In this document: in pieces, positions 1,599 to 56,554 of the stretch
Layout of the letters: each line of letters starts with the position of its first letter
Position numbering within the stretch: the stretch's first letter is position 1
From: Amoebidium appalachense
Lineage: Eukaryota > Protista > Ichthyosporea
Direction: 5' to 3'
Length of the DNA stretch: 64,000 bases
Assembly: GCA_963693365.1 (NCBI GenBank)
Contig: CAVNZM010000011.1
Span: 9,020,664 to 9,084,663, forward strand
Notes under the pieces: generated by a model
The model's input: only the letters and a program-made list of their open reading frames with translations
The model's database searches: none
Told to the model about the DNA's origin: nothing
Position numbers and translations under genes: made by a program

Positions 1599-10211
<8,613 letters not shown>

Positions 10212-11309: not shown

Positions 11310-12688
11310 ACACGCACACACACTCCCCCCCCTCCCCCTCTTCCCCCTCCCTCCCCGCCCCCCTCCCCCCACCCCCACTCCCATGCCACCGTTTCGTCCC
11401 GAGGCTATAACGACAGCTACTAATAGTGTGGGTGCATGCGCTCATAGGTGTAGGTTATAAGTGGTTAGATAGGGAAATAGCCGGATAGGTAACTGTTTGG
11501 TGCCTTCAGGTGAGTGAGGGAGGGACTTTGAGCCGCAGGCATGCTGAGTGTGTGATTAGGCCAAACGAGTTATTGAGTGTCCCTGTTCGTGTATTTTTAG
11601 AGCTTTCGTGTGTGTGTGTGCACGTGTTTGTGTAGCGTCTTACAGGAATGTGCAGGTGACTGGGTGTTTCGTGCAGTGCATATCTGCGTGTGAGTAAGGC
11701 TTGGGACTGAAGGGGATACCGATTTTGGCGTGAGATGATGGTGGTGGTGGTGGTGGTTAAGGGCGGGTTGGTGGGTGGTTGGGTGGAAGGGGAGGGGGGG
11801 TGTGGAGGGGAGGGAAGGGGAAAAGGAATGACGGGAGGGCTCACTAGGACGCACAAGCAATGGGTATAAGTAAGCGTGAGGGGAAATCCCAGCTTGTTTT
11901 TCTCCTTTAATATGTGTAATAATTGTGTTTAAAATGTTTATAGACACAAACACCTTGGGGGAATATTGTGTGCTCGTTAGGATGGGCGAGAGGATGTCTG
12001 CATGCGTGTTGGGGGGGAGGTGGGGTGGGTGGGGGGGGGGGGGGGGGAGGCGGGAGGGGAAGGGGGGACCGGGGGAAGGGGGGGAGGGGGGGGGGGGGGG
12101 GGGGGAGGAGGTTGGCCTGTCGGCCTGATATTTTTTAAAGGGAGTCACTGAGCGATAGCTTCGTATATTTTTCAACCTGATTCTTCATGTTTCCATTGTT
12201 TTGGAAGCCGCTATTAAACCGGTTGGCTGTGTGTGGAAGTTCATCGAATATCTCCTCAAACTACCTGTGGCACCGGATGTAGGAACAGGTTTGAGATAAA
12301 AAGAAGGAAGGCAAAGGGGAGGGGAGTGGGGGGGAGGAGGGGTGTGTGTGCGCGCGTGTGTGTGTATGGGGGGGGGAGGGGGGGGTTGTGTGTGTGTTCT
12401 TGCTGACTGGCTGAAAATCTACAGCTGAGAAGGAAGCAGAGGGTCGCTCGGCGCACCATCAACACCCTGGAGCCTCACACTTTTTCGTTTGTCTTCTCGG
12501 GAACACCAGAAAAATCCAGTTTACTCTCACTTCATGACTATCTTTTGCCGTCAAAATACTTAGTCTGCGCATTCAAGGATTTTTTACATGTAATGATCTG
12601 TGTATTACCACATTTAGGTAACTTGTAGAGATATCTAGTCATTGCCATATTTAGGCATCTATGAATCTATAAGGGGATATCACCAAAC

Positions 12689-13505
12689 ATGGTGCGAGGA
12701 AGCGCCAACGGGTCGAGGCACAGGGCATCCTCCACAAACCATCACAAACCCGACCCGAACCGAAACTCAAAACAACCCGACCCGAAAATGGGCCACGGAC
12801 CGAGCTTCAGCCTTTCGGGACGGAAAACGTTTGAAATTTTGGTTGCAGCAGGTGTGGCAGTTTCGATTTTTCTATATTCCGGTGTATTTTCCCGTTTTGG
12901 TAGCACACCAGGGGAGAGTGACCTTGGGCCAACTAAACCAGAGCACCATTTCTCGCACACAGACCCACGTGTTCCGGAACTGCTCGATTCTTTAATAGAC
13001 GGTGTTAAAGACGCCTTGAAAGTCCTCGACAAGCCAAATTTGGACGCGGGAGAGCGATTCGAGGCGTGGAACCAAGTCGGGTCGTCCTTTGTCGGTATTG
13101 GCCCGTATATACAAACCGAGCATCAGTCTGGGAAGCTGGAGCCCTTTGTGAAGGCATTCATCTCCCCCTCCCCCCTCCCTCCCCCTCCCTTCTTTCCCCC
13201 CCCCTCCCCCCCCCCCCTCCCCCCCCCCCCCCCTCCTCCCCCCCCCCCCCCCCCCCAAACACACACACACACGCTCAGCCACACCTACCCCCATTCCCCC
13301 CTGATGTTGGGCTCTGTTTATTCTTCATACCGTTTGTGCGCGATTTTTGTCCCCCCCCCCCCCCCCCCCCCCCCCCCACACACACACACATGCCTCTTCC
13401 CCTCCCCCTCCCCTCCCCCTCTCCCATAAATTCTACACTGTGTTGTCCGTTGTCAATGTGTAGATCGTGCTCTGTTGCACATTCTAACCCCCCCCCCCCC
13501 TTCCC

Positions 13506-13542
<37 letters not shown>

Positions 13543-14208
13543 AGAAAAAGAGAAGAAAAAAAAAAGAGAAGGAAAAAAAGAAGGGGGGGGGGGGGGGGGG
13601 GGGAATCACCTGTTCAGTGACTTGAAAAATCCACACACATTCTATGTAATCAGATCTCAGTCAGGGGACGATTATTTTTTGAACAGTGAGTATCTCTTAT
13701 CTAACAGTTATGGCCACCCTCCCTCTTCGTTTCGAGTTACCAAAGCCACTCCGTGCGTGCACGAAAATGCATAACGTATGCTCCTCCATCCACTTTACAC
13801 CAATTTGATGGTCCACGGGGGGAGGGGAGGAGGGAGGGGAGGGGAGGGGGGAGGAGAGAGAGAGGTGGGGAGGGGGGGGGAGGAGGGGGAGGGGGGAGGG
13901 GAGGGGTGGAGAGGGGGGTGAGGTCTGACAATGAGTCCGGTTCGAGCGATGCTGCATCGACTCATACGAATCGTTTCAAAAGGTTAAAATCTAATTTTGA
14001 ATAATTTTTGCAGGAAGTGCGTGAGCATCTGTACAGCGTGCAGCTCAGTGATTGGCCGTGCTATGCCCTTGGCGACGTTCTATTGGTTGCCAAGTACGTG
14101 GGCCTGGAGGAGGGCAAATCTAATGCTTTGCAGGTGTGCATTCCCCTATTCACCAGTCAGACGTGAACATACATGTGCATGTGAGAACAATATGTCGCCC
14201 AAACCAGT

Positions 14209-14241
<33 letters not shown>

Positions 14242-14519
14242 GGTCATCTAACATTCTGCCTGCACCCCACCCACCATTCTCACTTTCTACCCGGCTAACT
14301 TAATCACTGACACACACACACACAAACTAAAACAAGAAAAGTATGGACAAGGGGTAAGAAAAAACTTGAGTGAGAGCGAAGGGGAGGGAGAGAGTTAGAG
14401 ACTGGTAAATGTAGACACGCACGCCTGCATATATGCATGCATCCAGGCACAGACAAACACACGCCCACACGTGTGCACGCTCAAACACAGATATGCGCGC
14501 ATACACAGGCACACACGCA

Positions 14520-14554
<35 letters not shown>

Positions 14555-14968
14555 GCACGCATGCACGCACGCACGCACACACACATACACACACACACAC
14601 ACACATACACACACATGCCAACCCTCCCCCCCCCCCACTCACACACACCAACACCCCCCACCCCCCTACACACACACACACACGTACACACACACGCACA
14701 CACACGTACAGGAGCATATGCGTCAGGCATGCATCGAGGATCTTCCACACATGCCGCTTGAAACACGCACCCTCCTTATGCGTGTGGTACCGACCGCTGT
14801 CATGTGTCGTCTGGGAATGGATGGGACACAGTCTTTTGTAAACGAAACCTTGCGAAGGTTCATGTCTCATAGGTAAGTGTTTTAGCCGAAGTTCCTTGCA
14901 TATGGGTCGGTACTTCGTGTGCTATCCCACCATTTTGTGTGTGTGCAGTGTGTGCGTGCGTGTGTGCG

Positions 14969-15039
<71 letters not shown>

Positions 15040-15521
15040 ACGGTGGCCAGGGCCGGGGGAGGGGGGGGGGGGGGGGGGGGAAGGGGGTGAGGGGGTGTGC
15101 GCATGTGCATTCATGGGTGCGTGTGTGCGTGTAAATTATGGAATTGTACGTGGACGTGCAAGTACATGTGCCTGCTTGTGTGACAGCGTACCTTACTTAT
15201 TCATCCCCTTTCTTTCTTTCTTTTTACCCCCCATTCCCTACCCTCTACCTTCTAATGCATGCACAACAACCACAACATTGCATGCCCGCTCATATGACTA
15301 CCTACCGTGCCACGGACTCCCCCTCCATGCCATCTGGCCAACTGCATATATGCAGACGTATCGATATACCCCCCCCCCCCCCCCCCCCCCCCCCTTCTCC
15401 CCCTCCCCAGCCCCCCCCCCTCCCTCCCCCCCCCCCCCCCCCCCACACACACGCACATATTTGCACAGACAGGCACAACGACATACACACACACTGGCAC
15501 ACACACAACACACACCGTCAC

Positions 15522-15578
<57 letters not shown>

Positions 15579-16585
15579 GACAGACACACGCACACATACA
15601 CTGTGACACACACACACACACACACACCAGACACACACACACACAGACACACACACACTGGCACACACACACAGACATACACACACACACACTGGCACAC
15701 CCGCACCCCCCCCCCACACACACACACTCACGCGCGCACACACGCACACACACACACACACTTTCACTCTCACTGACCAACCCGCCCCCCTGCCTCCCCC
15801 CCCCCCCCCCTCCCCAACGAACAAACACTCCCCCCCCCCCCTCTCCCCTCCCTACAAACCCCCCTCCCCCCCCCCCCCCCCACACACACACAGGCAGCCA
15901 GACAACAGCTTTGTTGACGACTATCCCGATTTGGTAAAAGCAGAGAGGGGGCAGGAAGATCCGTCCTATCCAAACGTTGGAAGTGATTACGTCACCACAC
16001 ACGCGTTTATGGCTCTAGTAGCATGTGGGGCGGAAAAAGACGTCGTTGAAAGTACTGCACGCCACATGGTGAAGAATCTGCCTACACATATGAGGCGGGG
16101 CCAAACAGGTGTGTGTGGTTCAAAGACACACATGCACAGACAGACATTCATATATCCGGACACAACTGTCTCCCCCCTCCCCCTCTCCCCCTCCCTCAAC
16201 CCCTCCGGGTTCCCTCTTCCGCCCCCTGCACCCGTGCACCCTGTCTGATCTTACAATCAGGTTTTGGCCAAACAGGTGCATGTTGCTCAAAGATGCACAG
16301 GCACACACACACACACCACTGCACACACATATGTGGCACATGCACACATGCACACATTTTTTCCTCCCCTTTCCATAATATTATTCGGTGGTTTGTCTTT
16401 AAATTTTTAGTGTCGCAAGTTCCCATATTTGGCCCCTTCGTTTTTCCTGTGGGATTCCTTTGGTTTCCGTTCTTGTTTTCTGGCTTCTGGTTAGTGTGCC
16501 GGTCAGACAGTTTTTCGAAAGGCCCATAATGATTTTGGTGAGATGACTGCTTTCAACCCCCATCCCCCCCCCCCCCCCCCCCCCC

Positions 16586-16647
<62 letters not shown>

Positions 16648-16825
16648 AAGGTAAAATAAAGAAAGAGGATGTAATTATTATTATAGTAAAACGGTGCATT
16701 CACTTTTGTGTGTCACAGTACTCCATTTTTTCGCACTGCTCTGGCATCTGCTTATGTCAATTTTCTCCGGCATGAATAGTACTTTGCTAAAACACTCGCC
16801 ACATCCTAACTCCTCTTCACCCCCT

Positions 16826-16858
<33 letters not shown>

Positions 16859-16999
16859 CCCCACCCTTCCCCCCCACCGCCCCTCCTACTGAGGCCCCCC
16901 TCGGCTCCTTCGAGTCCCCTCCCCGGATCTCCCCTCTTCCCCCCAGCCCCCCTCCCCCCACTCACCCACCGCTACCACCACCACCCCCACACCCCCCCT

Positions 17000-17034
<35 letters not shown>

Positions 17035-17304
17035 CCCGCCGCTCCCACTCCCCCCCCTCTTGCAGATATTGTCATGGAAACCGTTCTCTTCCTGAAGTGG
17101 GCCAATCTTTGGAAGGAAGACTGCTGTCGTGATTCCGTCTCTACCGCCTATGGGTGGGTGGCCTCACAGCTACGGCCGGGGGGATTATGTCCGGTGCATG
17201 AGGTCGCAGAGTGTAAGCCGCATTGGCACACAAACGCTGTATTTTTGGGGTTCTGGGCGCCTGGGAGCGAGGGGTGGTTAACGAGGGTGGGGAGTGTGCA
17301 GTAA
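12689..17304 (+). CDS. Type II membrane protein with putative alpha/alpha-toroid lumenal domain (C16orf89/UPF0764- or DUF6895-like), 5 exons, ~399 aa
   Basis: Exons 12689-13153 (or -13147), 14014-14133, 14712-14872, 15894-16108, 17066-17304 join in frame. Single [20 protein letters not shown]. Motifs [44 protein letters not shown] follow the QxxDGxF / THxxxxL / DxxxE / HxT pattern. Gene model is solid, family call tentative. Confidence 0.6.
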
Positions 17305-17901
17305 ATAATTAAAGAAAAAAAAAGAATTACTGATTGGAGCCAGGCTTAGTCACTGAGGGAAGCTTTTCAAAGAGCGGGTTAAAGCTTTTTTGTTCTTCCG
17401 ATTTGAATTTTTGACTTGAAATTATATTTAAAAATTAAAATTGTTACTTGTCCAGCTTTAAACCTTTCTCTCCTTTTCTTGCCTATTCAAAAATAATGTA
17501 CGCCCGTTTTTGGCAGGAGCCTAAGGGAGTATCCTTAATTGCATCGGCCCGGTCTCTTGTATAGTCACACGCCATCTCAGTTTTTTAGCCAGATAAGTTG
17601 AAAGGCCTTTTCAGAGCCTTCAGGTAAATTTATCTGCATCAGATTCTATAGTCACTCACTGAACTTTTAAGTTTAAAGTTGTTGCTATTAAATGGTTTTC
17701 GTCTGGTCAAGTTGGTGTATATCATCAGTCCTCCGACAGTGTGTGTGTGTGTGCACGTGTGTGCGTGCGTGCGTGCGTGCGTGTGTGTGTGCGTGCGTGT
17801 GTGTGTGTGTGTGTGTGTGCGTGCGTGCGTGTGTGTGTACGTGCGTGCATGCGTGTGTGTTGGACGGAGGGGGAGGCTGAGAAGTGGACGGGCAGGCTAG
17901 C

Positions 17902-17939
<38 letters not shown>

Positions 17940-18117
17940 ACGTGTGTGTGTGTGTGTGTGCGTGTGTGTGCGTAGGGGGGGAAAGGGGGGGGGGGGAGGG
18001 TGGGGGGAGGAGGGGGAGGAAGGGGGGGGGGGGGGTTCACTAGTGTGTGCTTGTCACAGTGCTCTACCATTTTGCGCATGCGCGCGCGTGTGTGTTTGTG
18101 TGTGTGTGTGTGTCTGT

Positions 18118-18204
<87 letters not shown>

Positions 18205-18347
18205 GTGTGTGTGTCACGGTGTGCCCGACAATGTGTCTTGTCTGACAGTGTGGTGGGCTAAACCCGGTGGTGCGCATGTTGGTTAGTAGTTTTTTCCTTT
18301 TTTTTTGCCTCTCCTTTTCTTTTCTTTTCTTTTCTTTCCCTTTTTTT

Positions 18348-18393
<46 letters not shown>

Positions 18394-19969
18394 GAAGTTT
18401 ATTACTTGATGGGATGAAAGGAAGTGGTGGTCACGGTCTCTGACACGTGTATGTAAAGGTGTGTGTGTGTGTTTTTTTTTTGTTTCTTTGGGGGGGTCCC
18501 AGCCAACCCCCTCCGCCCCCCCCTTCCCCACCGCCATCTACCCCGCCTCCTCTCACCTCACCGGACAAAATGTGTTGGCCTGCGGCAGGCCGCCTGAGCC
18601 GGAGAGTCGGAAGCGGAGCCGGGCAGAAAACTGAACCAAAATAGCTCGGACTCATTGTTTTGGTCAGCTTGACACAGTGCATTATTTATAAGTTATCAGC
18701 GAGTCAACTTTCAAAAGGACTTTTCTTTTTGTAGCGCTAATATCGCCCAACTTGGAAAACTTGTCTTATAATAGGGCTATCAATCTAAACACGTGCTGTA
18801 AAAAAGTGTGTGCACGTGTGCCGGTGTGTGTCATGATTCATTAATGTGCACGTGTTGTGATAACGGCACAGACACGAAAATTCAAGTGAAAGTCACGCGT
18901 TGGCATGCCTCACGCGTACGCGTGAGTGCGCAGTGCGGATCACGGATCACGGCTACGGTCCCGACGCAGAAAACCTATCCAAAAAACTATAAGTCCCACG
19001 CACAGTCGGGTTGCAGAGTAGATACGGCGGGCATGTTCATTCTTATGGTTTCTATAAGTCTCTCGAATTTTTATTTTATTTTTTTAATGGAGTAAATAAT
19101 TATTGTAGCATAATCTCGTGGCTATTAGTAAGTCCATGGCGTAGTAGTCCAATGCATCACTACTGTAATACTGTGTTGGTTCCTGGTGGGCCCAGCTGCA
19201 GATTGCGCCATCATGTCATGGCATGGACTCATTGGTTTATGGTTACCAGGGTTGGAATATCAATAGACTAAGGGGCGTGCACCTATAGCTTTTCTGTTGG
19301 TAGGCTGTAGGCCGAGACAATATTTTATTTAATCTTCTAATGCCTTTTTTCATGAAGAATTGTAGGCAAACATGAATATCCTCACGGCAGGTCGATGGTC
19401 ATTTTCAACAACTTCAGGGCGAATTCACCTCTCGCTTACCACTGGAATTTTGTGTACAAGCGTTATCCCTGACATTGAGCCAATCGTGTTTACTCAAGGG
19501 GGCAGATGTAAATCGCAGCTTCATTTTGTCGCATGCATGTATCAAATGTAAAAAATACTTCTTATAGTTGAATTTTTTATTCTAATTTTTTTTTAAATAT
19601 CAAGTTTTTAATGCATTAACTTTGGTGGTTACAGAATTTATTGGGTGTTCTGACACCGTGTCCAGAATGACACATCTTCTGCGGGCCACAGAAGTCATCG
19701 AAACGTGCGCCACATGGAAGACCTTCCCCAATTCAAAGACATGTATATACAAGTTGATTCAGATGAACCCTGCGGTCCAATAACTTTAGATCGTAGTAAA
19801 GCGAGCGCTTTACGTAAAAAAAAAAGCGTGCCAATCGAGTGCCTTTCGCCTGAAGTTCAGCTACGAACCCACTTAGTAGTTTTAAGTTGTTAACAAATCG
19901 TGTTTCATTTATCTTTTGGGGCTAAGAATCTTGTTTTCTTGTATTGGTAAAGCTTGATGCTTATTCAAA

Positions 19970-20641
19970 GTGGTGAACTTCAACTCTTGCTTATATATAG
20001 GTCTAATGCATGCCCTGAAAACCACTGGGGTTGCCATCAAACATGAACCGGATTATCGTATTTTTCGAGGGCCCCACAGACTCTGGCACAGACTCGAGTT
20101 GGACGAATCACGTAGGGCTCCCTTTCGTACGTATTTCTACTTGCACGCAGCACGCCAGCACCTCGGCAGGGGGGGGCCGTGCATGCGCCGTCCCCAATCA
20201 TCGAGAGTGCGTGAGACTCCAATGGGCTGGGATGCTCCCTCTGTTGGCACAATTTGGCCTATACAGCTTAAAAAAAACAAGCCATGCCATAGACACAGTG
20301 TTCCTAGAAAATGTCTTCGGTCTTCCATCTAACATGTAATTACACGTACATCTTTTGTCGGATTTTATCGACTAATCTAATTGACAAGAACACGTCCCTA
20401 GAACCAATCACATGACAGGCTAATCTCGCGGTTGAGGGAAAACGATGCTACGAGCGTGATAGACACGGACACGAAGGAACCAATGTTTTCTGGTGAGAAA
20501 CTGCTCGAGCGCAAACGCCGATGCGAGATGGAAATCGAGCTCTTCTGCGAACTGTTCGCGCTGGCGGAAGGTCGTGCATACGACCCCGTAAGCGACAAGT
20601 GGGAACCAACCCCACAGGTGTCGGACCAAACCGATGCCTAA
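19970..20641 (+). pseudogene. Probable degraded ORF1 of the LINE
   Basis: Unique, repeat-free sequence with short ORFs (19970-20332, 20031-20339, 20432-20641). The last one ends in ATGCCTAA, overlapping the ORF2 start codon. No recognisable domain. Confidence 0.4.
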
Positions 20642-23600
20642 TTTATCCTTCTTCTTCTGGAATGCTCGGACACTGGGCCCCCAAAAGGGCCTCCCCCCCG
20701 GGACACTCGACGATAAAATCAGCTACATACAACAACAGACAAACAACCACACGTTTACAGTGATTTGCGAAACACAGTTTAAAAACCACCACAAATTCAA
20801 CTCTACATTGGTCGACACATCCACACACCCCGGTTACGCGAAAAACCGAGGCATTATTGTACTTGCCGCACCACACGTGAGAGTGAAGTGCAAACCGGTA
20901 GCAAAAACGGAATTCTCGGTTTCTATAGAGTTTCTTTCTAATGTTTTTACTTTTGTATATTACCCACCATCTATGTCGGTTGTCGAATTGACTCACGAGT
21001 TGTCACAGTTACCAATGTCCACTGTTATTTTAGGTGATTTTAACACGCGACTCCACCACACAGACACACTGCAAGTGAGTGTCGGGTACCCATCTAAGCC
21101 CCCGGAGCGTGCTATCCCTTTAGCAAGGTATGTCCAAAGTCACACTTTGCGGTTCCCTCAAATATCCCATGCCCACAACACCGACTGGGGAGTGGCCTTT
21201 TGGCCATCAACCATGTCAAAACTCTCTCTCCCTCCTAACCTCTCTAGGTCATCTGACCACTCTCCTATCCTTTTCCTACCTAAGATCTCCCTTGATCTGC
21301 TCCCCCCTCCCCCTCCCACCTTTCGCCTCCGTCTATCCCAGCTTAAGTCACAATGGGGTAGAGTTGATGTATGTGTATGCTATGCTACGAAACACCCTAT
21401 ATATATGCGCCTATTAGAATCTGCACAAGCCAGGCCAGATTCACATCTCGTACTAGATACATGCACTAACTTTATTGTTGATGATTTGATAGATCTCGGT
21501 GATTATGCTGGCGGTGGTAGGAAGGAATATCCCGATGCTCTCTTGTTACCAAACACCACTCCCGCTAGACTAGGTGAACCCCTGTCTCAAAAGGAAAGCT
21601 TGCGCCGGCTTGCTAGTATGAATCGATTTGGCCCCCCTGCTCGTATTATTGGTGATACCACTGGAGACCCCCTCATAGACTCTGATAAGTATTTCTCGGA
21701 ACTGTTTAAAGATAGGACCCCCGCTCAGAAACCTATTGTGTGGCCTGTAGACCCATCTATCCCCATAGAATCGATCCTCCCCTTTTTCAGTCCCGATGCC
21801 ATATGGTCTGTGATATCTAGTTATAGCTCTAGTAAGTCTTGTGGACCTGATGGACTCCCTGCTGGGTTTCTTAAAATCCTTGTTCCCTCCTACCCACAAA
21901 AGGAAAGTGATCGTGCTATTAAACCTGATCTTACTATCATGTTAAGCTCTCTCTTTTCTTGGTGTGTTAAATGTGGACATGTCCCGTCATCTTGGTTATA
22001 TACCTTAAGTTAGTGATCCCCATAGTTAAGAAGGACTCTGAGGGCCCCATATCATCCTTTCGCCCCATTACACTAACCCAGGTTGTTCGTAGATTCTTTG
22101 AAGCTTGCTTACTTAGGTTATTTGCACATCACCCTAGGTTTCAATCTATTCTTCACATACACCCATGCCAATCCGCTTTTCGTAAAAACAATTCATGTTA
22201 TGTTCAAATAATGGCACTGCACGATTCAGTATGCAAGTTGGTGCACAATATGTTGGCTTTATTGATTGGAAAACTGCTTACGATTCTGTCTCCCCTGGTC
22301 TCCTATGGGAAAAGCTTGCTGCACGGGGTGTACCACACTGCATTGGTGTTCTGTTAGAAGCACTCTTGTCTCAAACCTATGGTAGAGCTGTGGTTAATGG
22401 GCATCTTTCATATGGTTTTGCTCGTACTAGAGGTCTCTTGCAGGGTTCATTGCTTAGCCCCTTTTTGTTTAACCTATTTATAGATGATTTGGCTGTCAAG
22501 ATTTACGCCGAAAACGATGACCCTATTAATAACTTTCCGCCTGCACTTCTCTATGCTGATGATCTGTCCCTCCTTGCCCGTACCCCTAGACGCCTGCAAA
22601 GATTGTTCGATGTAGTGTCAGAGTGGTGCAAGGCAAACCTTATGATCCTTAACATAGACAAATGTGGTGTTCTTGTACCTGATATAGCTAACAATTTACA
22701 CACATTTACATTATCATCTAAACCTGTACCTATAGTTCCAGAATACAAATATCTTGGTGTTCCGGTTGATTCTGTTGGTGTTATGTTTCCCCATATGGTC
22801 GAAAAGAGGGTAGAGTTGGCTCGTAAGCGGTTAGCTTTCTTCTCGGCTAATATTTTTAAAGACACACCCCTCCATCCTTCTATTAGACTTACATTTATTC
22901 GCACTTTTGTCTTCCCGGCATGTGAATATGGTTTACCCCTTCTCGCCGCTTGGATCAAGAAAGAGAGAACTAGAGCGCTTAAACCCTTGGCAAATTTCCT
23001 TGAAGCAGAAGTTGCCTCCTTTCTATCTAACAACTGTTGTAAACCTGGGCCTGTAACGCTCTCGATATATGGTCTGGTCCCAATAGCTGCTAGAGTATCC
23101 TATCTCGCGCTGAAATTCAATAAGCACATAAGCCGCTTAAAGAAGTATTTGCCCTCCCACCCTCTCTTCTCTATCCGACCTGTCCCCTCCTCACCTCTCC
23201 CCTCTTTCCTCCCCTCTCTCTCCCCTTCTCCCCTGGGCACAAATACAAATAAACCCCGCAATAGTGTGTGTGTGACTTTGGACTGCCACTTACTTATTAA
23301 ACATGTACACAATCACAAGATAATCACGCAATATAACAAATAGGAAAAAGATACCACACGACACTAGACCCGATGAAAGCATACACCTTGAAAAACTAAG
23401 CCTTATGTCTCGTTTTATATATACTGACCGCCTCAACCATATTGCCAAATATGGCACTCGCAAGTGTATAACACCTAAATACATATTACCTTCCTGTAGA
23501 ACTGGTCTTTCTCTAGCTGATGGTATTATTGATCAATTACCACGCTTTTACTGTACACGTGCTATACAGTGGAGATCTAATAAGTATAAGGTGGCATCAT

Positions 23601-25887: not shown

Positions 25888-26858
25888 ATGAAGCGTGGAG
25901 CTGCTGAGGAAGGTGAGAAATTAGTAACTATGGTCACGGTCTGTGACTTTTTGGTTGGCTCGACGTAACGATTGTGTGGCCTTGGTTGTGCGGACACGTG
26001 GGTGTGTGGGTTGGTGTGGTTGGGTGTTGTATAAGATTTTGTGTGTTGACTCGTGTTAAAATTTCATGACGGCCTGCTCTTATTTTGGGTGTGGGTGTGG
26101 GGGGGGGGGGGGGGGGGGGAGGAGGCCCTTCTTTTTTCTTTTCCTTTTTTCTGTTTTTTTTTTTTGGGGGGGGGGGGGAGGGGGGGGGGGGGAGGGGAGA
26201 GGGGGAGAGGGGGCGGGGAGGGGGGGGGGGGGGGGGTTGCATTAGTTCATTGAGCCCTTCTTCACTTTTTAGTTGACTGACTTTCAGTCCCCCGGTGCCA
26301 CCCCGATCTTTTTTCTCCATCCGAACCGTTGTGTTGCAACGAAACACTCTGACACCTGCAGAGGCACACCATTAAATTTGTTAAAAGCGGGTCTCTTTAA
26401 AAAAAAAAAATAGTATAAGCAGGTACCCCTCATTGATTTCCGATTCAGAACATCTTGTATGACAGTTAATTATCAATTAGCCACTTTTGGGTCAGGCTCA
26501 ATCATTGTGTGATACCCGTTCCGCCATTCATATTGCATACACCCCCTTCGGGTCTGACGACCCGGATACCTAAAAGAATCACCCTTGAAGTTATAAATGT
26601 TGCACATGTGGAAACTGAGGACGTAACTACTGTGATGGGCTATCATGATGTACGTGGTCATTTGATGATTAGTGGTTGCTAATTCCTGGGAGTGAGTACT
26701 AGTGTACGTGCATACGTGGTTCAGAGCTCTGTCCCACTATCTTCCCACGTGATTTGTCACGCCTGTGCACACAAATAGCTCTTGTTAAAGTTACCATATT
26801 GTTCAGATGTGTGTTCCACCTCTACCTGTACAGAGGCATGCCTAGTTTAATATGTTGA

Positions 26859-26910
<52 letters not shown>

Positions 26911-27255
26911 GCATAATTAATAGCCCACGGTGACCCTTCCCCCCCCCCCCCCCCCCTCTCCCCCTCTTCCCCCCGTTCACCCCCCACTGTAATACACGAA
27001 ATGGTAAAACAACACACGCCCACGTGCACACACGTACACACGCACTTGGGTATGCAGAGAGTTAAGGGGGGGGGGGGGGGGGGGGGGGGTTTCAGAGAGG
27101 GAAACCTTGTGGAGAAAAAGATTACGCTTTTTCTTTTCATTGCTATCCATTCACCTATGTATTATCGTTGCAGGTTCTCGGCAAGAGCCATCAGACGAAC
27201 ACAGCAGCGACAATCGAGGGGCTAAGCGCACACGAAAGAAACAGTGAGTGTTTTG

Positions 27256-27331
<76 letters not shown>

Positions 27332-27420
27332 CTGCGCGTGCGCGTGCGCATGCGTGTGCACACACACGACACACGTGTGCATGTACACACATACGCACAC
27401 ACATGCACGTGACACACACA

Positions 27421-27481
<61 letters not shown>

Positions 27482-28247
27482 ACAGGTATATACATGCATG
27501 TGTTCAAGTTTTCAAAGTTTCCTATGACGCACACCGTCATACAGCGTACAGCGTACCTAAGACATCTAAATGTGTATCTGATCTTCTCGTTCAATTGGAT
27601 CGTGTGTTGGCTAGCATAGCGACTAGGTTTGCCTTATCAACCGTATCTGAAAGAGCACTTGCATTCACCAACTACATTGCTGCTCGCAGACGTGTATTCG
27701 CACAAACGTGCGCACACAAGCACACGCATACTAACCTTGCTGTGGTTCCATTTGCAGGCTATGGACACGTATCAAACAGCGATCAACGGACAAGCTAAGG
27801 CGTGATCAGACAGTGGAAAAGGTAACAGCCTCCACCCTCCCGTTCCCCCCATTCCCCCATTCCCCCTTTCCCCCCTTCCCCCCTTCCCCCCCCCCCCCCT
27901 TCTTCTCCGGCCTGGCCGGGTGTGCCCTTGCCCTTTTGCCGAATGTGTGTAACTCTCGTGCTTCTTTTGTGGAATTCGAATTTGCACTATGTGAGCATGA
28001 GTGCCCTGCCAGGTTTGTGAACGGTTATGTGTTTTGATGGGGAGGCACTCGTAACCTAATATTTTAATGCTCTGGAAATTCAAAGTTTCGTAAATCTTCG
28101 GTGTTACATTCTTTCCAGCTGGTTTGCATTTCTTCACATGTTGTTTTTCCTGGGTGACACCATGTCGTTTTTTTTTCTTGGCGAACACTACGTTGGCCAA
28201 CACCACCATGTCGGCTGTGTCGTTCTTTTTTTCTTGCTAACAGGGCC

Positions 28248-28284
<37 letters not shown>

Positions 28285-28623
28285 CCCGGGCCCCCTTAGC
28301 TACCACCATGTCGGGTTTTTTCTGGCTAACACCACCATTTCCTTTTCCTGTTTAACACCGCCATGCATTTTTGTCTTTGTTTTTATTTTTTCAAGCTAAC
28401 TCCACCATGCTTTTTTTCTGACGGACACTGCCATACCCTTTTTGGGCTAACACCACCATGTCGTTTTTTTTTTTTCTTCTGGCTAACACCACCATATCGT
28501 TTTTTCCTTTGCTATCACCATGTCGTTTTTTTTTTTTTTTCTTTGCTCACACCGCCATGTCGTTTTTTTTTGCTTCGCTAACACCGCCATGTCGTTTTTT
28601 TTCTTCGCTAACACCACCATGTC

Positions 28624-28658
<35 letters not shown>

Positions 28659-28819
28659 AACACCACCATGTCGTTTTTTTCTTTGCTAACACCACGTGTA
28701 GGTGGAGGAGTTGCGCCAGCTGCTGTGCCCGGATGACACACGGGCCACTCAGGCAGACATTTTGGATTTGACCCTCGATTTTCTCCAGCGCTTTGCTCGT
28801 ATGTGCTCCCCTCCCCCCC

Positions 28820-28850
<31 letters not shown>

Positions 28851-28879
28851 ACACCCCACCCACTTCCCCCCCCCCCCCT

Positions 28880-28911
<32 letters not shown>

Positions 28912-30198
28912 CTCCCTCTCTCTTTTCCTGTCTCACCCCATCCTTCTCCCCCTTCTCCCCATCACATGTTTTCCTCTTCCATTTCCCTGCTCCAACCCAC
29001 ACCAGCACCATGCCCTTCACTACCACCTTTTCTTTCTCTGCTACCCTTGACACACATGGTCTAAACTGCACGACATTATCCAATAATTGGCCATTTCATG
29101 TGGTCCATATATGCCACCTGACAGCCTGTATGATGGGATAAGGGCCTAATAGACCAATAGTGTTTCATCCGTAAGGGAAATGACACATAATCATTTCAAA
29201 TATTGACCTGATATCAGGTTTTTTTTATTACAACATTAAGGACTATGTCGGCATTTCGCTGCATGGGGTTCTCTTTTTGGGCAGCGCAGTACAAGATGTT
29301 CTGATGGGAAACACCCACATGGAAGCCAAAAGGCTCCTATAGTACGTTTCAGATTTTTCCCGAGCATACTGGTAAAAGAAGGTGATGTCGTGATTATGTC
29401 TACATTACATGTGTTTCGTGGTACTTTATCGAAACATGAGGCGGAGTGGTTGTACCTCAAGGCCCGATGATGTCGTATTTCATATTATATCTAGACGTCT
29501 CAAGGTTGTACGTTAATTTTCTGGTATTATATATTATGCTTGCCGAAAAGTAATCCATCTGCCGTTGGACATGCTTATCTCGTATTTGTGTCGACATTCA
29601 AGTAGTGCCTTCGAAAGATCACCCGAATTTTTTCATTAGAGCGCGATAATGTCGTACGTGTCGGCATTCCAAGTATAGCCGAAACATCATACGACATGCC
29701 GCTAAATCTAGCCGTAGGGGGTTTCACATGACCATTTTCGGTCTGGTTATATCCAAGTATGTTTCTTTAACAGAACACGTATACATATACATAATTGGAC
29801 ATGTATAAAGTCACTCTAGTATATTATACTATACTATATTTGCCGTACACTTACATTTCCTTTATAACGTCCACAGCTGCACTAGCTTCTTCCGTTATGC
29901 CCGATGCTGATTCGTCGTCAGAACCAGACAGCGACAAAGAGCCAATCGCGCCATTGGCTGTCACCGCGGCAACCGAAATCCAATCAAAAGAGGAGCCGGA
30001 GGAGAATGGGGACAGCGCGGAATGGGCCAGAATATTTATGGAAAAATCGGATGTGATTGTGCTGGTGGCAAATGGTACGGGGGAGATTATGTATGCGTCA
30101 AGTTTGGCTCGGAGGCTTTTGAACCTGGGGACGGAGACGGTGGCATCTGGATTGTTCCTTCAGGACTTTGTGTACCAGTCTGAAAGGGTAGGTGCCGG

Positions 30199-30256
<58 letters not shown>

Positions 30257-30498
30257 CGGTTAATCCTTTGTTTTCGTCGTTCTTGTCTTTGCTTTTGTCT
30301 CGCTTTTTCCAGAGGTTAAAGAGTCAAAACTCATGCCTTTGTGGAGGCATAGGAACCCCCCTGATGATGGGCTCTGTTCAAGTGTCTTCTGCCTGCACGC
30401 TTAATTGTTTTGATTTTGGATTTCCCACCTTTGTGACGCTTTGTTGTTGCTCTTTGTTGTCTCCTCCATATTTCCAACCCTCTAACGCATACATCACC

Positions 30499-30544
<46 letters not shown>

Positions 30545-30915
30545 AAAAAAAAAAAAAAAAACCAACCTCGGGAGCAGGTAAAACAAACCAAGAAATCACT
30601 TCAGACGTAGTTCTTACATCCATTTCCCTCCTCCTGCCTACAGACCATCCTCCAACTACAGCTCCAATCATGTCTGGAGCGTGGCCCGGGCCATTCCCGC
30701 ACTGTGCGCACAAACATCGGCTCAAAAGACGGACACATGATCCCTATGGAAGTACGCCTGTCGGCCGTTGTGAGCAAGGAGGGCCCCGTTGTGCTGCTGG
30801 AGGGGTCACCGCAAATCCCAATGCAGCTGTCTGAATATTTGGATTTTCCGTGCATGACGTGTGTGTCTGTGCATGACACCGCAGGTATGTACAGGGGTGT
30901 GTGTGTGTGTGGGGT

Positions 30916-30947
<32 letters not shown>

Positions 30948-31419
30948 TGGGTGAGTGGGTGTGGGGTGTGGGTGGGTGAATGCGGGAATGGGTGGTGTAT
31001 AGCTGGGTGTGTGCGATGCGGGAATGGTGTGTGGGTGTGCGTGTGGTTGTGGTTGTGTGTGTTGTTTAGTGGTTAGGGGGAAATGAGGAGGAGGGGGGGT
31101 ACCACCCTCGCAAGAGCGTTTTCCAGGTGTCAACACAATTGCCAAAGCTGGCCAAAAATCATCCTTAGTCGTTTTAAGTCACTCATGTGTAGCTTATTTG
31201 CTTCTGCACATATAGCACGACCACATTCATGTTGGCACACACAGACAGACATGCGCATGTGCATGCACATGCATACATGCACATATGCGTGCACGCAAGC
31301 ATACAGAGAGACTCTCACACACACGGGCACACACACACGTTCACTGACAAACCCAATGGCACACACACGTAAGAGCACACACACACACATGCACACACAC
31401 ATATGCACACACCCGCGCG

Positions 31420-31483
<64 letters not shown>

Positions 31484-32189
31484 CACGTTCACTGACTCAT
31501 GTACGCACTCGCTCACACAGAGAGAGACACACACACACATACACACACACACACACATAATTCACTCGCTCGCTCACTCATCTGACACCCTCCCACACAC
31601 ACACACTCACTCACTCACTCACTCACCCATACTCATCCCCCCCCCCCCCCCCCCCCCCCCCCCCTTCCCCCCCCTCCCCACCCTCCCATACATCACCCCC
31701 TCCCCCGCTCCCCTCCTCCCCCCCCCTCCCCCCCCCCCCCCCCACACACACACACACACACACCCACACACACGCACACAGGCCGCATCATATCGGCCAA
31801 CAACCACATCTACGAGGTCATGGGCATACGTGTGGAGGACCTACGTGGGGGGATTATTATGGTGATTCACCATAGGGAGGACCAGGCACGTACACTGAGG
31901 TGCCAGAGATATTTGGCGTCGGCAGGGAGAATGGTATGTGAACCTGCGGGTTCTGTCGTGTTTTTACCGGTTGAATTGTTTTGTGTTGAAGTCTCCCATC
32001 CTATGTGTGGCGGGATTTGCTGGCGCATGAGTGCCTACGTGTATGGGTCGTGGGTGTCTGCGTGTCACGCAGCGTGCGTGCAAGCATGTGTGTGTCGACG
32101 TGTGCACACATGTAGGCGTTCAGACCGTTTTATATGCACATTCGTGTGGATGTGTGCATTCTCGTGTGTGTGTGCATGTGTCATTGCAT

Positions 32190-32225
<36 letters not shown>

Positions 32226-32657
32226 TTCCTCCCCTCTCCTTTTTCCCTCAGGGGTTGACTCTGTTGAAAGTATGGGTTGGGAAGCATGTGCAAGAGGTTA
32301 GAGATTCGAGCCCCATTCTTCTTTTGTGGACGCATAGGAACCCCCCTGATGATGGGCTCTGTTCAAGTGTCTTCTGCCTGCACACTTATATTGTTTGATT
32401 TTGGATTTCCCACTTTGTGACGTTTTGTTGATGCTGTTTGTTGTCTCCTCCATATTTCCAACCCTCTAACCCATACATCACCCCCCCCCCCCCCCCCCCC
32501 CCCCCCCTCCCTACGCCTCCCCCTCCCCCTCCCCCGGATGGGCTCTGCTCAATAAGCCTACTCTTTGCGTGTTGTTTGCACTCTGCATTGTGTTATGGAT
32601 GTGTACTATGTGTGCTCTATAACACATTCTAACCTTCCCCCCCCCCCCCCCTCTGCT

Positions 32658-32698
<41 letters not shown>

Positions 32699-32944
32699 CA
32701 CACACACACACACGTACACGTACACGTACACGTACACACACAGGGCATTATCCGTCGTGGTCTCCTTCGTGTGACCTACCGCGCCTACCACGCCCGCCTG
32801 CAACACTACGTCTGGCTCACCTCTGAACTGGGGACGGAGGAGGGACCGGACGGGCCGAGAGTTGTTGCACTCACTTGGTTTGACCACCCGTTTGCTGGAT
32901 TGTATGCCGCACCCGTTGGAGGTATGTGGTTTTAAAAAAAAAAA

Positions 32945-33006
<62 letters not shown>

Positions 33007-33298
33007 CGCGCGCGCGCGCGCGCGCAGTTGGTGGTGGTCGGGGGGGGAGGAGGAGGGGGGGGGGGGGGGGGATGAGGAGTGTGGGCATGTGGGTGTGACT
33101 GTAGGTGTGGGTGTCAGGTGGGAAGTGTAGGTTCAAGGTGTGCATGTGTGGTTGCGGGGTGGGCGTGGGCTTGTGGTTTGATGGCGTGTGGATCTTGTGG
33201 GTGTGGGTACGTGTGAACACGGGTGCGCTTGCATTACTTGGCTTGTCTTTGGTGTTCACCCCATGGACATTTTCTTCTTTCTTCTCTCTTCTGCGCAA

Positions 33299-33331
<33 letters not shown>

Positions 33332-33368
33332 ACACCCACACCCACACCCACACACACACACACAACCC

Positions 33369-33410
<42 letters not shown>

Positions 33411-33727
33411 ACCTGCCCTTCCCCTTAAGGGCCGTCACTGCCCAGGATGCATGAAACCTTTTTGGGGGGGGGGGGGGGGGGGGGGGAATAAGCAACCAAA
33501 TTGTGATTGTACACAGAGCCACATGAGCGAGATATGGAGGTCAGTTTCACAGCAATGACCCAAGACCTACAAGAGGTTGGTGACCCCCCCCCCCCCCCCC
33601 CCCCCCTTCCCCCCCTCCCCTCCCCCCCCCCCCCCCCCCCCTCTTTCCCCCTTTCCCCTGGCCTGGGAGTCGCCGCCGTCATTGGTGATAGGCTGAGGTC
33701 AGCGTCAGAACATTGCATGGGCATTCT

Positions 33728-33760
<33 letters not shown>

Positions 33761-33810
33761 TTTTTGTGTGTGTATGTGTTTTGGGTATGTTGGGCAGGGG
33801 GCACGGGGGC

Positions 33811-33881
<71 letters not shown>

Positions 33882-35348
33882 TGGATGTGTCGTTTTTTTT
33901 TAGCTTTTTTTTTTTCGTTTTTTTTTTTAAAAAAAATTCTGGGGAGAGGGGGGGGGGGGGGAGGGGGGGATATGGCTCTCTGTGTGAGTCGAGAGACCAC
34001 ATGCTTTTCGCAGAATAATCAGCAGTCTATCTCGTTTGAATGTTTTGTCCCTGACAAGAATTTGCTCCAAACAACCCCCTTAAAACAAAACTTCTAACCC
34101 CACAAATACTAATTTATTTTCCCAAAACAGGAAAACATGCGTCTAAAACGTGACCTGGAGGCCCTTAAATGCACACCAGCGCCTTTCCTCTCCAGCCCCG
34201 AGGGAAGCGCACACAGCACGCCTGTAAATCGCAACACAGAGGGATCGGATTTCCAAATCGGGCGAACGCAATCTGCTCCCGCATGGGAGGCACCACCATC
34301 ATCAAATTCACTGAAACGAACTTCAAGCTCAAAATCCAGACATCTCGACATTAGGAACAACGCGGATAGAGCTCCCCCTCCTCCGGCGCAAATGTCGCCC
34401 CAGGGGACCAACCACAACCGTGTTTTTGGTCCAAGATCCCCCCATTCGGCGCATGGTCATGTCACCAGGCCGCCACCACCACCACCGCAACAGCACGTAG
34501 AATACAAATATGCACGGCCGTTTTCGTCAGAGGGTTTTTCCGAACAAGACGTATACGGGCCTCTGGTTGCTGACAGAAGTATCCCCTCTGATCTCCCTCC
34601 AAGGCAGGTTCGCCCTCGAAACGGGTACAATATATCTGAGGGGGGACACCCGCAAAGGATACACGATCGCCCTTTAGATATGCCGCGGGCATACCAGGGA
34701 AATCCGGGAAATTTTGCAGATAATTCTGAAATGAGGCACGATCGGCCCGGAAACGTAGCCTATTCTCCCCATTCTTACCGGCCGGCTTTCTCTTCGACTA
34801 ACCTCCGGCCACAACAGCGATCATATCCCGAATACCCGGAACGAATTCGAGTTCCATCCAAATCTGAACCGGGTCAATACGGGCCATTCGAACCGGCCCG
34901 TTATGGCCCACGGAGTTACCAACATACCCATGCACCCGGGTTCGAACCAGAGTCGGGTCGACCCATGAGCCGAGTCAGTCCTCGTGGGTCGGGTACCGAA
35001 CCGTTTATGTACGAAAGGAACCGGCCCGAAATTCCCGAGCCAATCTACGTGAACATGAACGGAGGTAGTTACGAACCACCAGATATGTCACGATGGGCCG
35101 CGAAAAACGTCATGACGCGGGCACACCAGAAACGAGACGGGGGCGAAAATATCAACGACGGGGGGGTTCAGAATGCACATGGGGGCTACTATGTAAATGA
35201 TAGGGAGTATATGAACCGGTTTCCTCCCGGGTCCGACCCGCAATACGAGGAAGTTGGCCCGGCCCGACCCTGGGATGATATGAATACGATGATGGGACCG
35301 AGGGGACCTCATATGCCCCCGCCGCGGGGTAGTATGCCTTATCGGTAA
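25888..35348 (+). CDS. bHLH-PAS transcription factor (bHLH + PAS-A + PAS-B + short coiled coil + Pro-rich disordered tail), 10 exons, ~804 aa
   Basis: Phase-consistent exons 25888-25912, 27174-27243, 27758-27821, 28702-28798, 29877-30187, 30644-30884, 31782-31933, 32744-32921, 33517-33575, 34131-35348. b[79 protein letters not shown]...[24 protein letters not shown]...[16 protein letters not shown]...[18 protein letters not shown]. Start exon and last codons are less certain. Confidence 0.85.
28157..28698 (+). repeat. Minisatellite, ~15 units of GCTAACACCRCCATGTCG(T)n, at the 3' end of bHLH-PAS intron 3
   Basis: Units read directly. The last unit GCTAACACCACGTGTAG supplies the predicted 3' splice site at 28701. 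Confidence 0.9.
30332..30498 (+). repeat. Family A copy in bHLH-PAS intron 5
   Basis: Full-length copy followed by poly(C). Confidence 0.9.
32321..32482 (+). repeat. Family A copy in bHLH-PAS intron 7
   Basis: Full-length copy followed by poly(C). Confidence 0.9.
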
Positions 35349-35763
35349 ATGTTTTTCGATGAGAAATTTGGAGGTGAGATTTTGCGTCATAAATGACATC
35401 AGTTTGCTATCACATATATATAATATATATATTATGTATTAGAAAATTATTGATATATTGATATATATATATGATGTAAACGTTGCTGGTCGGGCCGCTC
35501 AAGTCGTTGACATTAGAGCGTGATGATTGGTTTTGACTACTTGTGGCGTTTTTTTCTTTTTTTTAGGCACTTGCCAAGTAATGTCGAACCACTGAGAATT
35601 TAGGCGTTGAAGCGAACATTTTATCAGGGTTATTTTCCAATGCACCAGTAGGTTTTTTTTGTTTGTTTTTTGTTTTTTTTGTGTTTTTTTGCGAAATGAT
35701 GCTGCCCTTCATGATTACATACGGGATTGTGTCTGCTTGTATGCACACCCGGATCACACACGC

Positions 35764-35870: not shown

Positions 35871-36915
35871 GCACACACACACACACACATCTTTTTTTTT
35901 CAGTGTTTGAAATTTTTCCTCGTATAAGCTACGAGCTTTCTTTGTGACAGATGAAGGTTTTTCCTTTCTCCGTAATAGAATATGAGATCGACATGTATGC
36001 AAGCATGTTCCGACTGAAACTTGGATATGATTTTGTGGCAAATGGCAAATAAGCGTAGTAGTACGAATGAACTTTGGCTGACACGTAGTGTGTTGGTGCG
36101 ATTATTTGCACATGCGAGAAAAAGCTTTTGGATGTGTTTCCATATTTGCGTGTCGTGGCCATTCGTCTGTTTAAATACTCTGGCCTGAAGTTATCTCGAC
36201 TATTCAGGAATTGAATGTTGAAAATATGTAAACATCAAGGGCCTTACGAAACATGTGCACCCAAGGTGGTGAAAATATGAAATAGAAAATAAATTGTTTT
36301 TTGATCTTCGGGTTATTACAGTTATCTTTCTACTTTTTTTATAGTTTTATGAAAACTTTTTGAATGGCGCGCCAAAACTTCCCGCCCAAATTTCGATATT
36401 TGGCTAATCGTGCGATCGCTCAAAAATAATTGGTCCATACATCATTTTTTCGATTTTTATTCATGGCCTAGTATAGACTGTAATGGGGGGAAGTAAACAC
36501 AGTCTCGTTTCTAGATCTGTTACTTAGCCTGCAAAATGTTATGTACGTACATTTGGGAGTATTGAATCCGAATATATATAGTATGTGCAGTGCTCCCATC
36601 AGTTGCATCAGTTGCTTACCCTCCCCGGTTGCATGCACACATGTAATAATATAGATACACGCCACCTGCTATATCATTGTACCACTTGCACATGCAAAGG
36701 CCTAGGGAGCGAGCCCGGCCGACCGATCGCGAGGCTGGGCAATAACGATATATGGTGTACATGAAGCCATCAATTGAGGTTTAATAAAGTAGGATTGATG
36801 GTGTGCCTGTTTGAAGCGACTTATTCCTGAGGGATAAAACAGCATTCAAACGAGATAGAATGCTAACTATTTCGAGAAAAGCACGTGCTCTCTCCACTCA
36901 CACAGAAGGTCATAT

Positions 36916-36946
<31 letters not shown>

Positions 36947-39396: not shown

Positions 39397-56554
<17,158 letters not shown>

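What the first reader, a model, noticed from the sequence alone, without database searches (positions are those of the whole stretch)
25888..35348. Hidden full-length bHLH-PAS-PAS factor, CLOCK-like, in an apparently non-animal eukaryote
Seen: ten exons join in phase into bHLH + two PAS + coiled coil ([20 protein letters not shown]) + ~400-aa Pro/Arg/Tyr-rich tail. The bHLH is split over small exons and is invisible as a unit in the ORF track. Known: bHLH-PAS proteins (CLOCK, ARNT/BMAL, HIF, AHR, SIM) are mainly animal sensors with few reported unicellular relatives. TDKLRRDQ...TLDFLQ resembles CLOCK SEKKRRDQ...SIDFLR as recalled. Inference: a divergent, possibly pre-metazoan, clock- or ligand-sensing transcription factor.
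Basis: partly seen in the sequence, partly recalled or inferred. Interest (0 to 1): 0.8.

Follow-up and report, generated by a model that had tools for sequence, protein, structure and literature searches.

The report
Orphan bHLH-PAS factor with leucine zipper
This spliced gene, predicted to have ten exons, encodes a distant relative of the animal clock, hypoxia and dioxin-sensing transcription factors that is no closer to CLOCK than to several other families, has aspartate where CLOCK has its DNA-reading glutamate, carries a predicted leucine zipper, and likely comes from a non-animal eukaryote.

Summary
The gene is real. Ten GT-AG exons (25888-35348) join into one 804-aa frame. Contigs of two runs from one sample splice the HLH exon to the PAS-A exon, and that exon to the next; seven junctions are untested. 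Single exons hit Pfam HLH, PAS and PAS_3 below curated cut-offs. An ungapped by-eye match to a published alignment supports an animal-type PAS-B. 'CLOCK-like' fails. The bHLH matches CLOCK at 13 of 46 columns, NPAS3 at 13, four other human rows at 12, whereas human and amphioxus CLOCK share 32. PAS-B is closer to HIF1A (13 of 46) and ARNT (11) than CLOCK (6). CLOCK's Glu43 is Asp, Arg39 is Gln, and the helix-2 'DK' is gone, so canonical E-box reading is unlikely. A leucine-zipper pattern follows PAS-B. No eukaryotic relative was found. The organism is not identified; non-animal is my estimate (about 70%). Non-animal bHLH-PAS proteins are already published, nearly all with one PAS. Verdict: an orphan two-PAS variant of a known family.

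The parts
25888..25912 (+). Exon 1 coding part (Met1; aa 1-8). Start codon inferred; the X1 contig holds about 696 more 5' letters than the model's CDS
   Evidence: junction not tested
27174..27243 (+). Exon 2 (aa 9-32); basic cluster aa 26-31 at 27224-27241, predicted nuclear localisation signal
   Evidence: NLS is inference
27758..27821 (+). Exon 3 (aa 32-53): basic region and start of helix 1; Asp43 at 27789-27791 in place of the E-box Glu; TACTAAC branch point 29 nt before the acceptor
   Evidence: no Pfam or PDB hit alone
28702..28798 (+). Exon 4 (aa 54-86): end of helix 1, loop, helix 2; 'DK' of helix 2 replaced by Thr69-Gln70
   Evidence: Pfam HLH E 5e-4; 3' junction shown
29877..30187 (+). 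Exon 5 (aa 86-189): acidic linker and N-terminal half of PAS-A (from about 30023)
   Evidence: Pfam PAS E 1e-3; both junctions shown; phmmer hit to a PAS kinase E 6.7e-5
30644..30884 (+). Exon 6 (aa 190-270): C-terminal half of PAS-A (helix plus three strands), linker, first strand of PAS-B with Ser264-x-His266
   Evidence: ESM Atlas PAS_3 clusters 0.91; model; weak PAS fold matches; 5' junction shown
31782..31933 (+). Exon 7 (aa 270-320): PAS-B N-terminal half with His300-Arg-Glu-Asp motif
   Evidence: Pfam PAS_3 E 1e-3; motif; by-eye match
32744..32921 (+). Exon 8 (aa 321-380): predicted last three strands of PAS-B
   Evidence: all-strand model, pLDDT 82; no Atlas, Foldseek or PAS Pfam support
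33517..33575 (+). Exon 9 (aa 380-399): first half of the predicted leucine zipper (from 33546)
   Evidence: 1 of 4 nearby splice combinations keeps the frame
34131..35348 (+). Exon 10 (aa 400-804): second half of the zipper (to 34169), then a 392-aa Pro/Arg/Ser/Gly-rich low-complexity tail and stop
   Evidence: no Pfam hit
35349..35681 (+). Inferred 3' UTR: 333 nt left over from the X1 contig length, ending in a T-rich run
   Evidence: length arithmetic only

Best explanation
This is a spliced gene for an orphan bHLH-PAS-A-PAS-B protein with a predicted leucine zipper, which likely works as a nuclear dimeric transcription factor, likely a homodimer, on a site other than the canonical CACGTG E-box. 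Shown: one open frame, the splice from the HLH exon to the PAS-A exon, and the residue changes Glu43 to Asp, Arg39 to Gln and 'DK' to 'TQ'. Inferred from family knowledge: aa 26-31 import it; HLH and PAS-A make the dimer; seven Lys/Arg in aa 31-47, including Arg36, Arg46 and Arg47, keep DNA contact, as in class I factors (HIF, SIM, AHR), which also lack the Glu and read NNCGTG-type sites; PAS-B may hold a small ligand or a partner; the zipper (aa 390-412) clamps the C-terminal side; the disordered tail recruits co-regulators. It is not an orthologue of CLOCK, ARNT/BMAL or HIF-alpha by the measures I could apply.
For: Frame and splice sites. Junctions. Pfam HLH, PAS, PAS_3 in the right order. 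Atlas recognises exon 6 as PAS_3-like, recognition 2937. A local profile from three bacterial-type PAS domains hit both PAS regions of the joined model, 12.4 and 6.9 bits, against a maximum of 5.7 in 500 shuffles. PAS-B aligns without gaps to animal PAS-B over 46 columns, with Ser-x-His, Gly, Leu-x-Gly and His-x-x-Asp kept (by eye; motif also). Zipper: Phe390, Leu397, Leu404, Leu411 at d, Asn401 at a, Glu400-Lys405 and Asp407-Lys412 as self-complementary g-e pairs; pattern in 0 and 1 of 20000 shuffles, 15 and 165 of 20000 without the Asn. Glu to Asp is reported to abolish E-box binding in bHLH proteins.
Against: All Pfam scores are below curated cut-offs. The bHLH is degenerate: Thr50-Val51 replace the hydrophobic-Asn pair and the helix-2 Lys is lost, so it may not bind DNA. 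The zipper is only three heptads and its pattern was chosen after seeing it. The bHLH is least like ARNT (7 of 46) and BMAL1 (9), the members reported to homodimerise, which argues for a separate partner. The second half of PAS-B has no profile or fold support. Seven junctions are untested and the transcript evidence is one sample.
Confidence: 0.5

Rival explanations
1. It is a class I-type subunit that needs an ARNT-like partner encoded elsewhere; the partner reads the GTG half-site and this protein sets the other half and senses a signal.
For: bHLH is closer to class I, CLOCK and NCOA rows (12-13 of 46) than to ARNT (7) or BMAL1 (9) (by eye). Class I factors pair with ARNT. PAS-B first half is most like HIF1A among the four rows counted.
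Against: Animal class I/II pairs do not use a zipper right after PAS-B (recalled), and its charges suit self-pairing. No paralogue lies in the window and the genome is not held.
Confidence: 0.22
2. It no longer binds DNA and acts through protein contacts, as a co-activator in the manner of NCOA/SRC or as a dominant-negative partner that titrates other bHLH proteins.
For: Glu43, the helix-1 Asn and the helix-2 Lys are all substituted. Helix 1 matches NCOA2 about as well as CLOCK (12 against 13 of 46).
Against: Seven basic residues remain in aa 31-47, above the six used as the DNA-binder threshold. No LxxLL motif lies in the tail.
Confidence: 0.18
3. It is the CLOCK-like activator of a circadian loop, binding E-boxes with a BMAL-like partner.
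For: Arg36, Lys44, Arg46-Gln49 and the end of helix 2 match CLOCK; 13 of 46 is tied for best. A diatom bHLH-PAS protein regulates diel rhythms.
Against: 13 of 46 against 32 of 46 for true orthologues; PAS-B matches CLOCK at only 6 of 46; Glu43 and Arg39 lost; tail has 4% Gln.
Confidence: 0.06
4. On origin rather than mechanism: the organism is an animal and this is a fast-evolving member of an animal bHLH-PAS family.
For: Two PAS domains with an animal-type PAS-B. Orphan bHLH-PAS genes exist in animals. My searches used 21-103-aa pieces with no positive control.
Against: No animal bHLH-PAS chain was hit in PDB by 5 of 5 pieces at E 10. The only hit among 1.84 billion representatives was a bacterial-type kinase. 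An exon of a neighbouring gene also found nothing.
Confidence: 0.25

Closest known systems
Animal bHLH-PAS factors of class I type (NPAS1/3, SIM, HIF-alpha, NPAS4, AHR)
   Same: bHLH, PAS-A, PAS-B, long low-complexity tail; no Glu at the E-box position; bHLH 12-13 of 46 (AHR 9); PAS-B first half 13 of 46 with HIF1A (by eye).
   Different: Far below orthologue-level identity; Asp rather than Ala or Ser at that position; no 'DK'; no HIF degradation motif; zipper directly after PAS-B.
CLOCK/NPAS2
   Same: Domain order; Arg36, Arg46, Arg47 of the DNA-contact set; 13 of 46 in the bHLH.
   Different: Glu43 to Asp, Arg39 to Gln; PAS-B 6 of 46; tail not Gln-rich; human-amphioxus CLOCK share 32 of 46.
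Unicellular bHLH-PAS proteins: Capsaspora owczarzaki (XP_004345696), Monosiga brevicollis, Guillardia theta (XP_005835918), Galdieria sulphuraria (XP_005709404), diatom RITMO1
   Same: bHLH plus PAS that falls outside the animal families.
   Different: Nearly all have one PAS and a short C-terminus; Galdieria is the stated two-PAS exception. I could not fetch these sequences, so similarity is untested.
NCOA/SRC co-activators
   Same: bHLH-PAS-A-PAS-B; helix 1 similar (12 of 46 with NCOA2).
   Different: NCOA keeps the Glu and 'DK'; no LxxLL motif in this tail.

Membership tests
bHLH-PAS (bHLH group C) | N-terminal bHLH domain | tested here: met
   Pfam HLH E 5e-4 on exon 4 alone, 20.2 bits against cut-off 20.7; canonical Arg46/47-Leu57-Leu61 spacing when joined to exon 3
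bHLH-PAS (bHLH group C) | PAS domain on the same transcript downstream of the bHLH | tested here: met
   exon 4-5 and 5-6 junctions; Pfam PAS
bHLH-PAS (animal type) | Second PAS domain (PAS-B) | tested here: met
   Pfam PAS_3 E 1e-3; ungapped 46-column match with SxH and HxED; second half supported only by a strand model; junctions 6-7 and 7-8 untested
bHLH-PAS (bHLH group C) | Dimerises and binds ACGTG/GCGTG-type DNA | not testable with these tools
   needs SELEX or EMSA
CLOCK/NPAS2 | DNA contacts Arg39, Glu43, Arg47 | tested here: not met
   Gln39, Asp43, Arg47
CLOCK/NPAS2 | Orthologue-level identity in bHLH and PAS-B | tested here: not met
   13 of 46 and 6 of 46, against 32 of 46 for human-amphioxus bHLH (by eye)
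CLOCK/NPAS2 | Groups with CLOCK in a tree | not testable with these tools
   no bHLH-PAS sequence could be brought into the script box
ARNT/BMAL | His-Glu-Arg basic triad | tested here: not met
   Gln39, Asp43, Arg47; bHLH 7 and 9 of 46
HIF-alpha | Degradation motif L[DE]x[LR]AP[FY]I | tested here: not met
   0 matches in 804 aa (motif)
LOV photoreceptor | NCRFL flavin-adduct motif (recalled) | tested here: not met
   0 matches
Unicellular bHLH-PAS group (Capsaspora, Monosiga, Guillardia) | Clusters with them in a tree | not testable with these tools
   sequences not obtainable here

The most novel reading that the evidence does not exclude
A single-celled lineage with no bHLH-PAS gene on record carries a full animal-type bHLH-PAS-A-PAS-B factor that pairs with itself through an added leucine zipper and reads a non-E-box site. 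The two-PAS sensor would then predate the ARNT/class I split and have been rewired for partner-free dimerisation outside animals.
Probability: 0.3. Interest if true: 0.75.

Novelty: new variant of a known kind. Interest (0 to 1): 0.5.

Why it matters
Published trees of bHLH-PAS origins rest on very few non-animal sequences, and they disagree even on choanoflagellates. Nearly all non-animal members have one PAS. A transcribed two-PAS member with an animal-type PAS-B from another lineage would help decide whether the two-PAS design arose once before animals or several times. It would also give a test case for what such a factor did before the ARNT heterodimer system. The value depends on identifying the organism, which I could not do.

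Tried and rejected
No whole genome is held, so no partner or marker-gene search was possible. Word-based homologue searches found nothing for exon 5 (0 of 753 candidates), a neighbour exon (0 of 123) or exon 4 plus 8 intron codons (0 of 11); these are weak negatives. JGI metagenome scan with exon 6: 0 of 590 pattern matches confirmed. PDB sequence searches with five exon pieces gave no bHLH or PAS chain at E 10. Aligning exons on P0001 as a scaffold gave a useless alignment, dropped. Atlas gave no usable hit for exon 8. Fold searches of single-exon models gave no match at E 0.001: exon 6 listed mostly PAS/LOV domains in Foldseek and ARNT PAS-B at Z 4.2, rmsd 1.8 over 56, below a non-PAS top row at Z 6.0; exon 8 gave nothing interpretable. 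No listed run is on record as RNA; X3 and X4 laid nothing. No tree, no full-length fold and no dimer prediction were made, because the spliced protein is not available as a stored sequence. An alternative exon 3 donor at 27813 keeps the frame but breaks helix-1 spacing, so I rejected it. Literature: 'bHLH-PAS' with 'ichthyospor' gave 3 papers (passages of one read describe no such protein, the other two seen as listings only); five terms on zipper and PAS-B together gave 0 (too strict to show absence); searches showed no listing describing this gene. PMC4342549 is not held. Earlier scan notes: nothing for this genome or look-alikes.
Full report
Observation. After correcting boundaries, ten exons from 25888 to 35348 give 2415 nt, 804 aa and a single terminal stop, with nine GT-AG introns of 456-1261 nt. 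Random GT/AG choices within 60 nt of each boundary gave an open frame to the same stop in 11 of 20000 trials. Three of nine introns have a CTAAC/CTAAT-type branch point in their last 60 nt, including TACTAAC before exon 3.

Transcript evidence. Four coded runs were listed, none on record as RNA. Laid on 29000-30198, contigs of X1 and X2 (one sample) cover exon 5 to the base. X1 depth is 65 on the exon; the intron is empty except one 172-nt piece at depth 3.7. The loose end before 29877 is the last 30 nt of exon 4, and the loose end after 30187 is the first 30 nt of exon 6. The X1 contig is 3444 nt, with 952 nt before exon 5 and 2181 after. The model needs 256 and 1848, leaving about 696 nt of 5' and 333 nt of 3' sequence. 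That fits the model but does not prove the other seven junctions. If the 5' part is unspliced it holds 13 upstream ATGs, so the N-terminus is the least certain part.

Domains. Tools could take only single exons. Pfam gave HLH on exon 4 (E 5e-4, 20.2 bits, cut-off 20.7, model positions 21-50), PAS on exon 5 (E 1e-3) and PAS_3 on exon 7 (E 1e-3), all under cut-off; exons 3, 6 and 10 gave nothing and exon 8 an unrelated weak hit. The first half of PAS-A, searched against 1.84 billion representatives, hit one protein at E 6.7e-5, an unnamed three-PAS histidine kinase. A profile from its PAS domains hit both PAS regions of the joined model, 12.4 and 6.9 bits, above all 500 shuffles (maximum 5.7). 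The Atlas placed exon 6 among PAS_3 clusters (0.91, shared features 119-131 of 256, a distant-relative level). Its single-sequence model is helix plus three strands (pLDDT 63), with only weak PAS fold matches. Exon 8 models as strands without any match.

Is it CLOCK-like? I compared the model by eye with the human and amphioxus alignment in supplement 4 of PMC4066832, over 46 bHLH columns (1-28 and 40-57; loop left out). Identities: human CLOCK 13, amphioxus Clock 13, NPAS3 13, NCOA2 12, NPAS4 12, SIM1 12, HIF1A 12, amphioxus orphan 12, amphioxus Ncoa 11, AHR 9, BMAL1 9, ARNT 7. I counted 12 of the 19 rows; the other seven are amphioxus orthologues of counted rows. Human and amphioxus CLOCK share 32. 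For the first 46 PAS-B columns, which align without gaps from Met260, I counted 4 of 19 rows: HIF1A 13, ARNT 11, BMAL1 9, CLOCK 6. These hand counts may be off by one. They show an orphan about equally far from several families. They also show that PAS-B keeps Ser-x-His, Gly, Leu-x-Gly and His-x-x-Asp; the last is the H(P)(D/E)D motif described for bHLH-PAS PAS-B. This favours kinship with animal PAS-B over a fresh bacterial capture (inference).

DNA-binding residues. CLOCK contacts DNA with Arg36, Arg39, Glu43, Arg46 and Arg47. Anchored on the Arg-Arg pair, the model has Arg36, Gln39, Asp43, Arg46, Arg47 (the numbering happens to coincide). Replacing this Glu by Asp, Gln or Leu is reported to abolish E-box binding (a plant bHLH survey citing earlier work). 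None of the 19 rows has Asp there; class I rows have Ala or Ser and bind NNCGTG-type sites with ARNT. The 'DK' opening helix 2, present in 17 of 19 rows, is Thr69-Gln70. Seven Lys/Arg remain in aa 31-47. So a non-E-box binder is the most likely reading, and a non-binder is possible.

The zipper. The pattern arose in 0 of 20000 shuffles of the whole protein and 1 of 20000 of aa 1-420; without the Asn, in 15 and 165. The pattern was defined after seeing it. That this arrangement favours a parallel homodimer is recalled coiled-coil knowledge, not tested. There is no HIF degradation motif, no LOV motif and no LxxLL in the tail.

Organism. Not determined. No genome is held. Homologue searches for this gene and for a neighbouring exon found no eukaryotic protein, and five exon pieces hit no bHLH or PAS chain in PDB. 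Animal orthologues in this family are usually far more alike, so I put non-animal at about 70%. The queries were short and had no positive control. The gene has its own introns and the same repeat style as its neighbours, so it is a resident nuclear gene. A unicellular holozoan was my working guess from recalled genome style; nothing here tests it.

What is known. bHLH-PAS genes occur in Capsaspora, Monosiga and Guillardia (one search found none in choanoflagellates), and about 90 in algae and alveolates. All but one of those 90 have a single PAS; Galdieria has two. Unicellular members grouped apart from animal families. Diatom RITMO1 regulates diel rhythms. So a non-animal bHLH-PAS gene is not new. 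A two-PAS form with long tail, degenerate basic helix and zipper is unusual; my searches did not show it described, but subscription papers and PMC4342549 were out of reach, and supplements of the phylogeny papers other than PMC6600994 and PMC4066832 were not read and may list such proteins.

Papers seen. Passages: 10.1101/271445, PMC6488082, PMC5064789, PMC5470732, PMC5800844, PMC10468136, PMC5558667, PMC4859532, PMC12774657, PMC1828162. PMC6600994: passages and supplement hits. PMC4066832: passages and supplement 4 whole. All others: search listings only.

Verdict. Observation confirmed; interpretation partly supported. This is a real, spliced, orphan bHLH-PAS-PAS factor with a predicted zipper, likely a dimeric regulator of a non-E-box site. 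It is not shown to be CLOCK-like, clock-related or ligand-binding. New variant of a known kind; interest 0.5, up to 0.75 if the lineage and the self-dimer are confirmed.

Noticed in passing
window 20592-23600 (+): LINE-type retroelement just upstream: endonuclease-like ORF (Pfam E 0.055) and reverse transcriptase (E 1.6e-22) in different frames, so apparently broken. CpG observed/expected 0.62 against 1.08 in exon 10, which may reflect methylation of repeats.
   Followed up: partly
window about 41128-56569 (-): Multi-exon gene with a Mut7-C domain (E 4e-8) and an upstream exon with a D-x-E exonuclease-like motif near 48850; looks like EXD3/Mut-7/Nibbler (name recalled). The exonuclease pieces had no Pfam, PDB or homologue hit.
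   Followed up: partly
window 30301-30495, 32293-32479, 8027-8171, 1727-1871, 62730-62868, 59170-59261: A dispersed non-coding element of about 150-190 nt, 6 copies at 79-95% identity on both strands, two inside this gene's introns, often next to poly-C; possibly a SINE or MITE.
   Followed up: partly
window 28140-28700 (intron 3): Degenerate tandem units (9 CATGTCG, 8 GCTAACA) separated by T runs, each carrying a branch-point-like CTAAC, run up to the exon 4 acceptor.
   Followed up: no
whole window: About 15% of bases lie in poly-C/G/A/T or dinucleotide runs; many introns have a CA or TG array next to a splice site.
   Followed up: no
window about 12665-20640 (+): Candidate multi-exon gene with a hydrophobic N-terminal segment and no Pfam hit.
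   Followed up: no
window about 2757-6817 (-): Candidate charged exons resembling CCDC137-type proteins (recalled); no Pfam hit.
   Followed up: no
window 33963-34073 and 36808-36922: A second inverted two-copy element of about 115 nt at 80% identity, one copy in intron 9.
   Followed up: no
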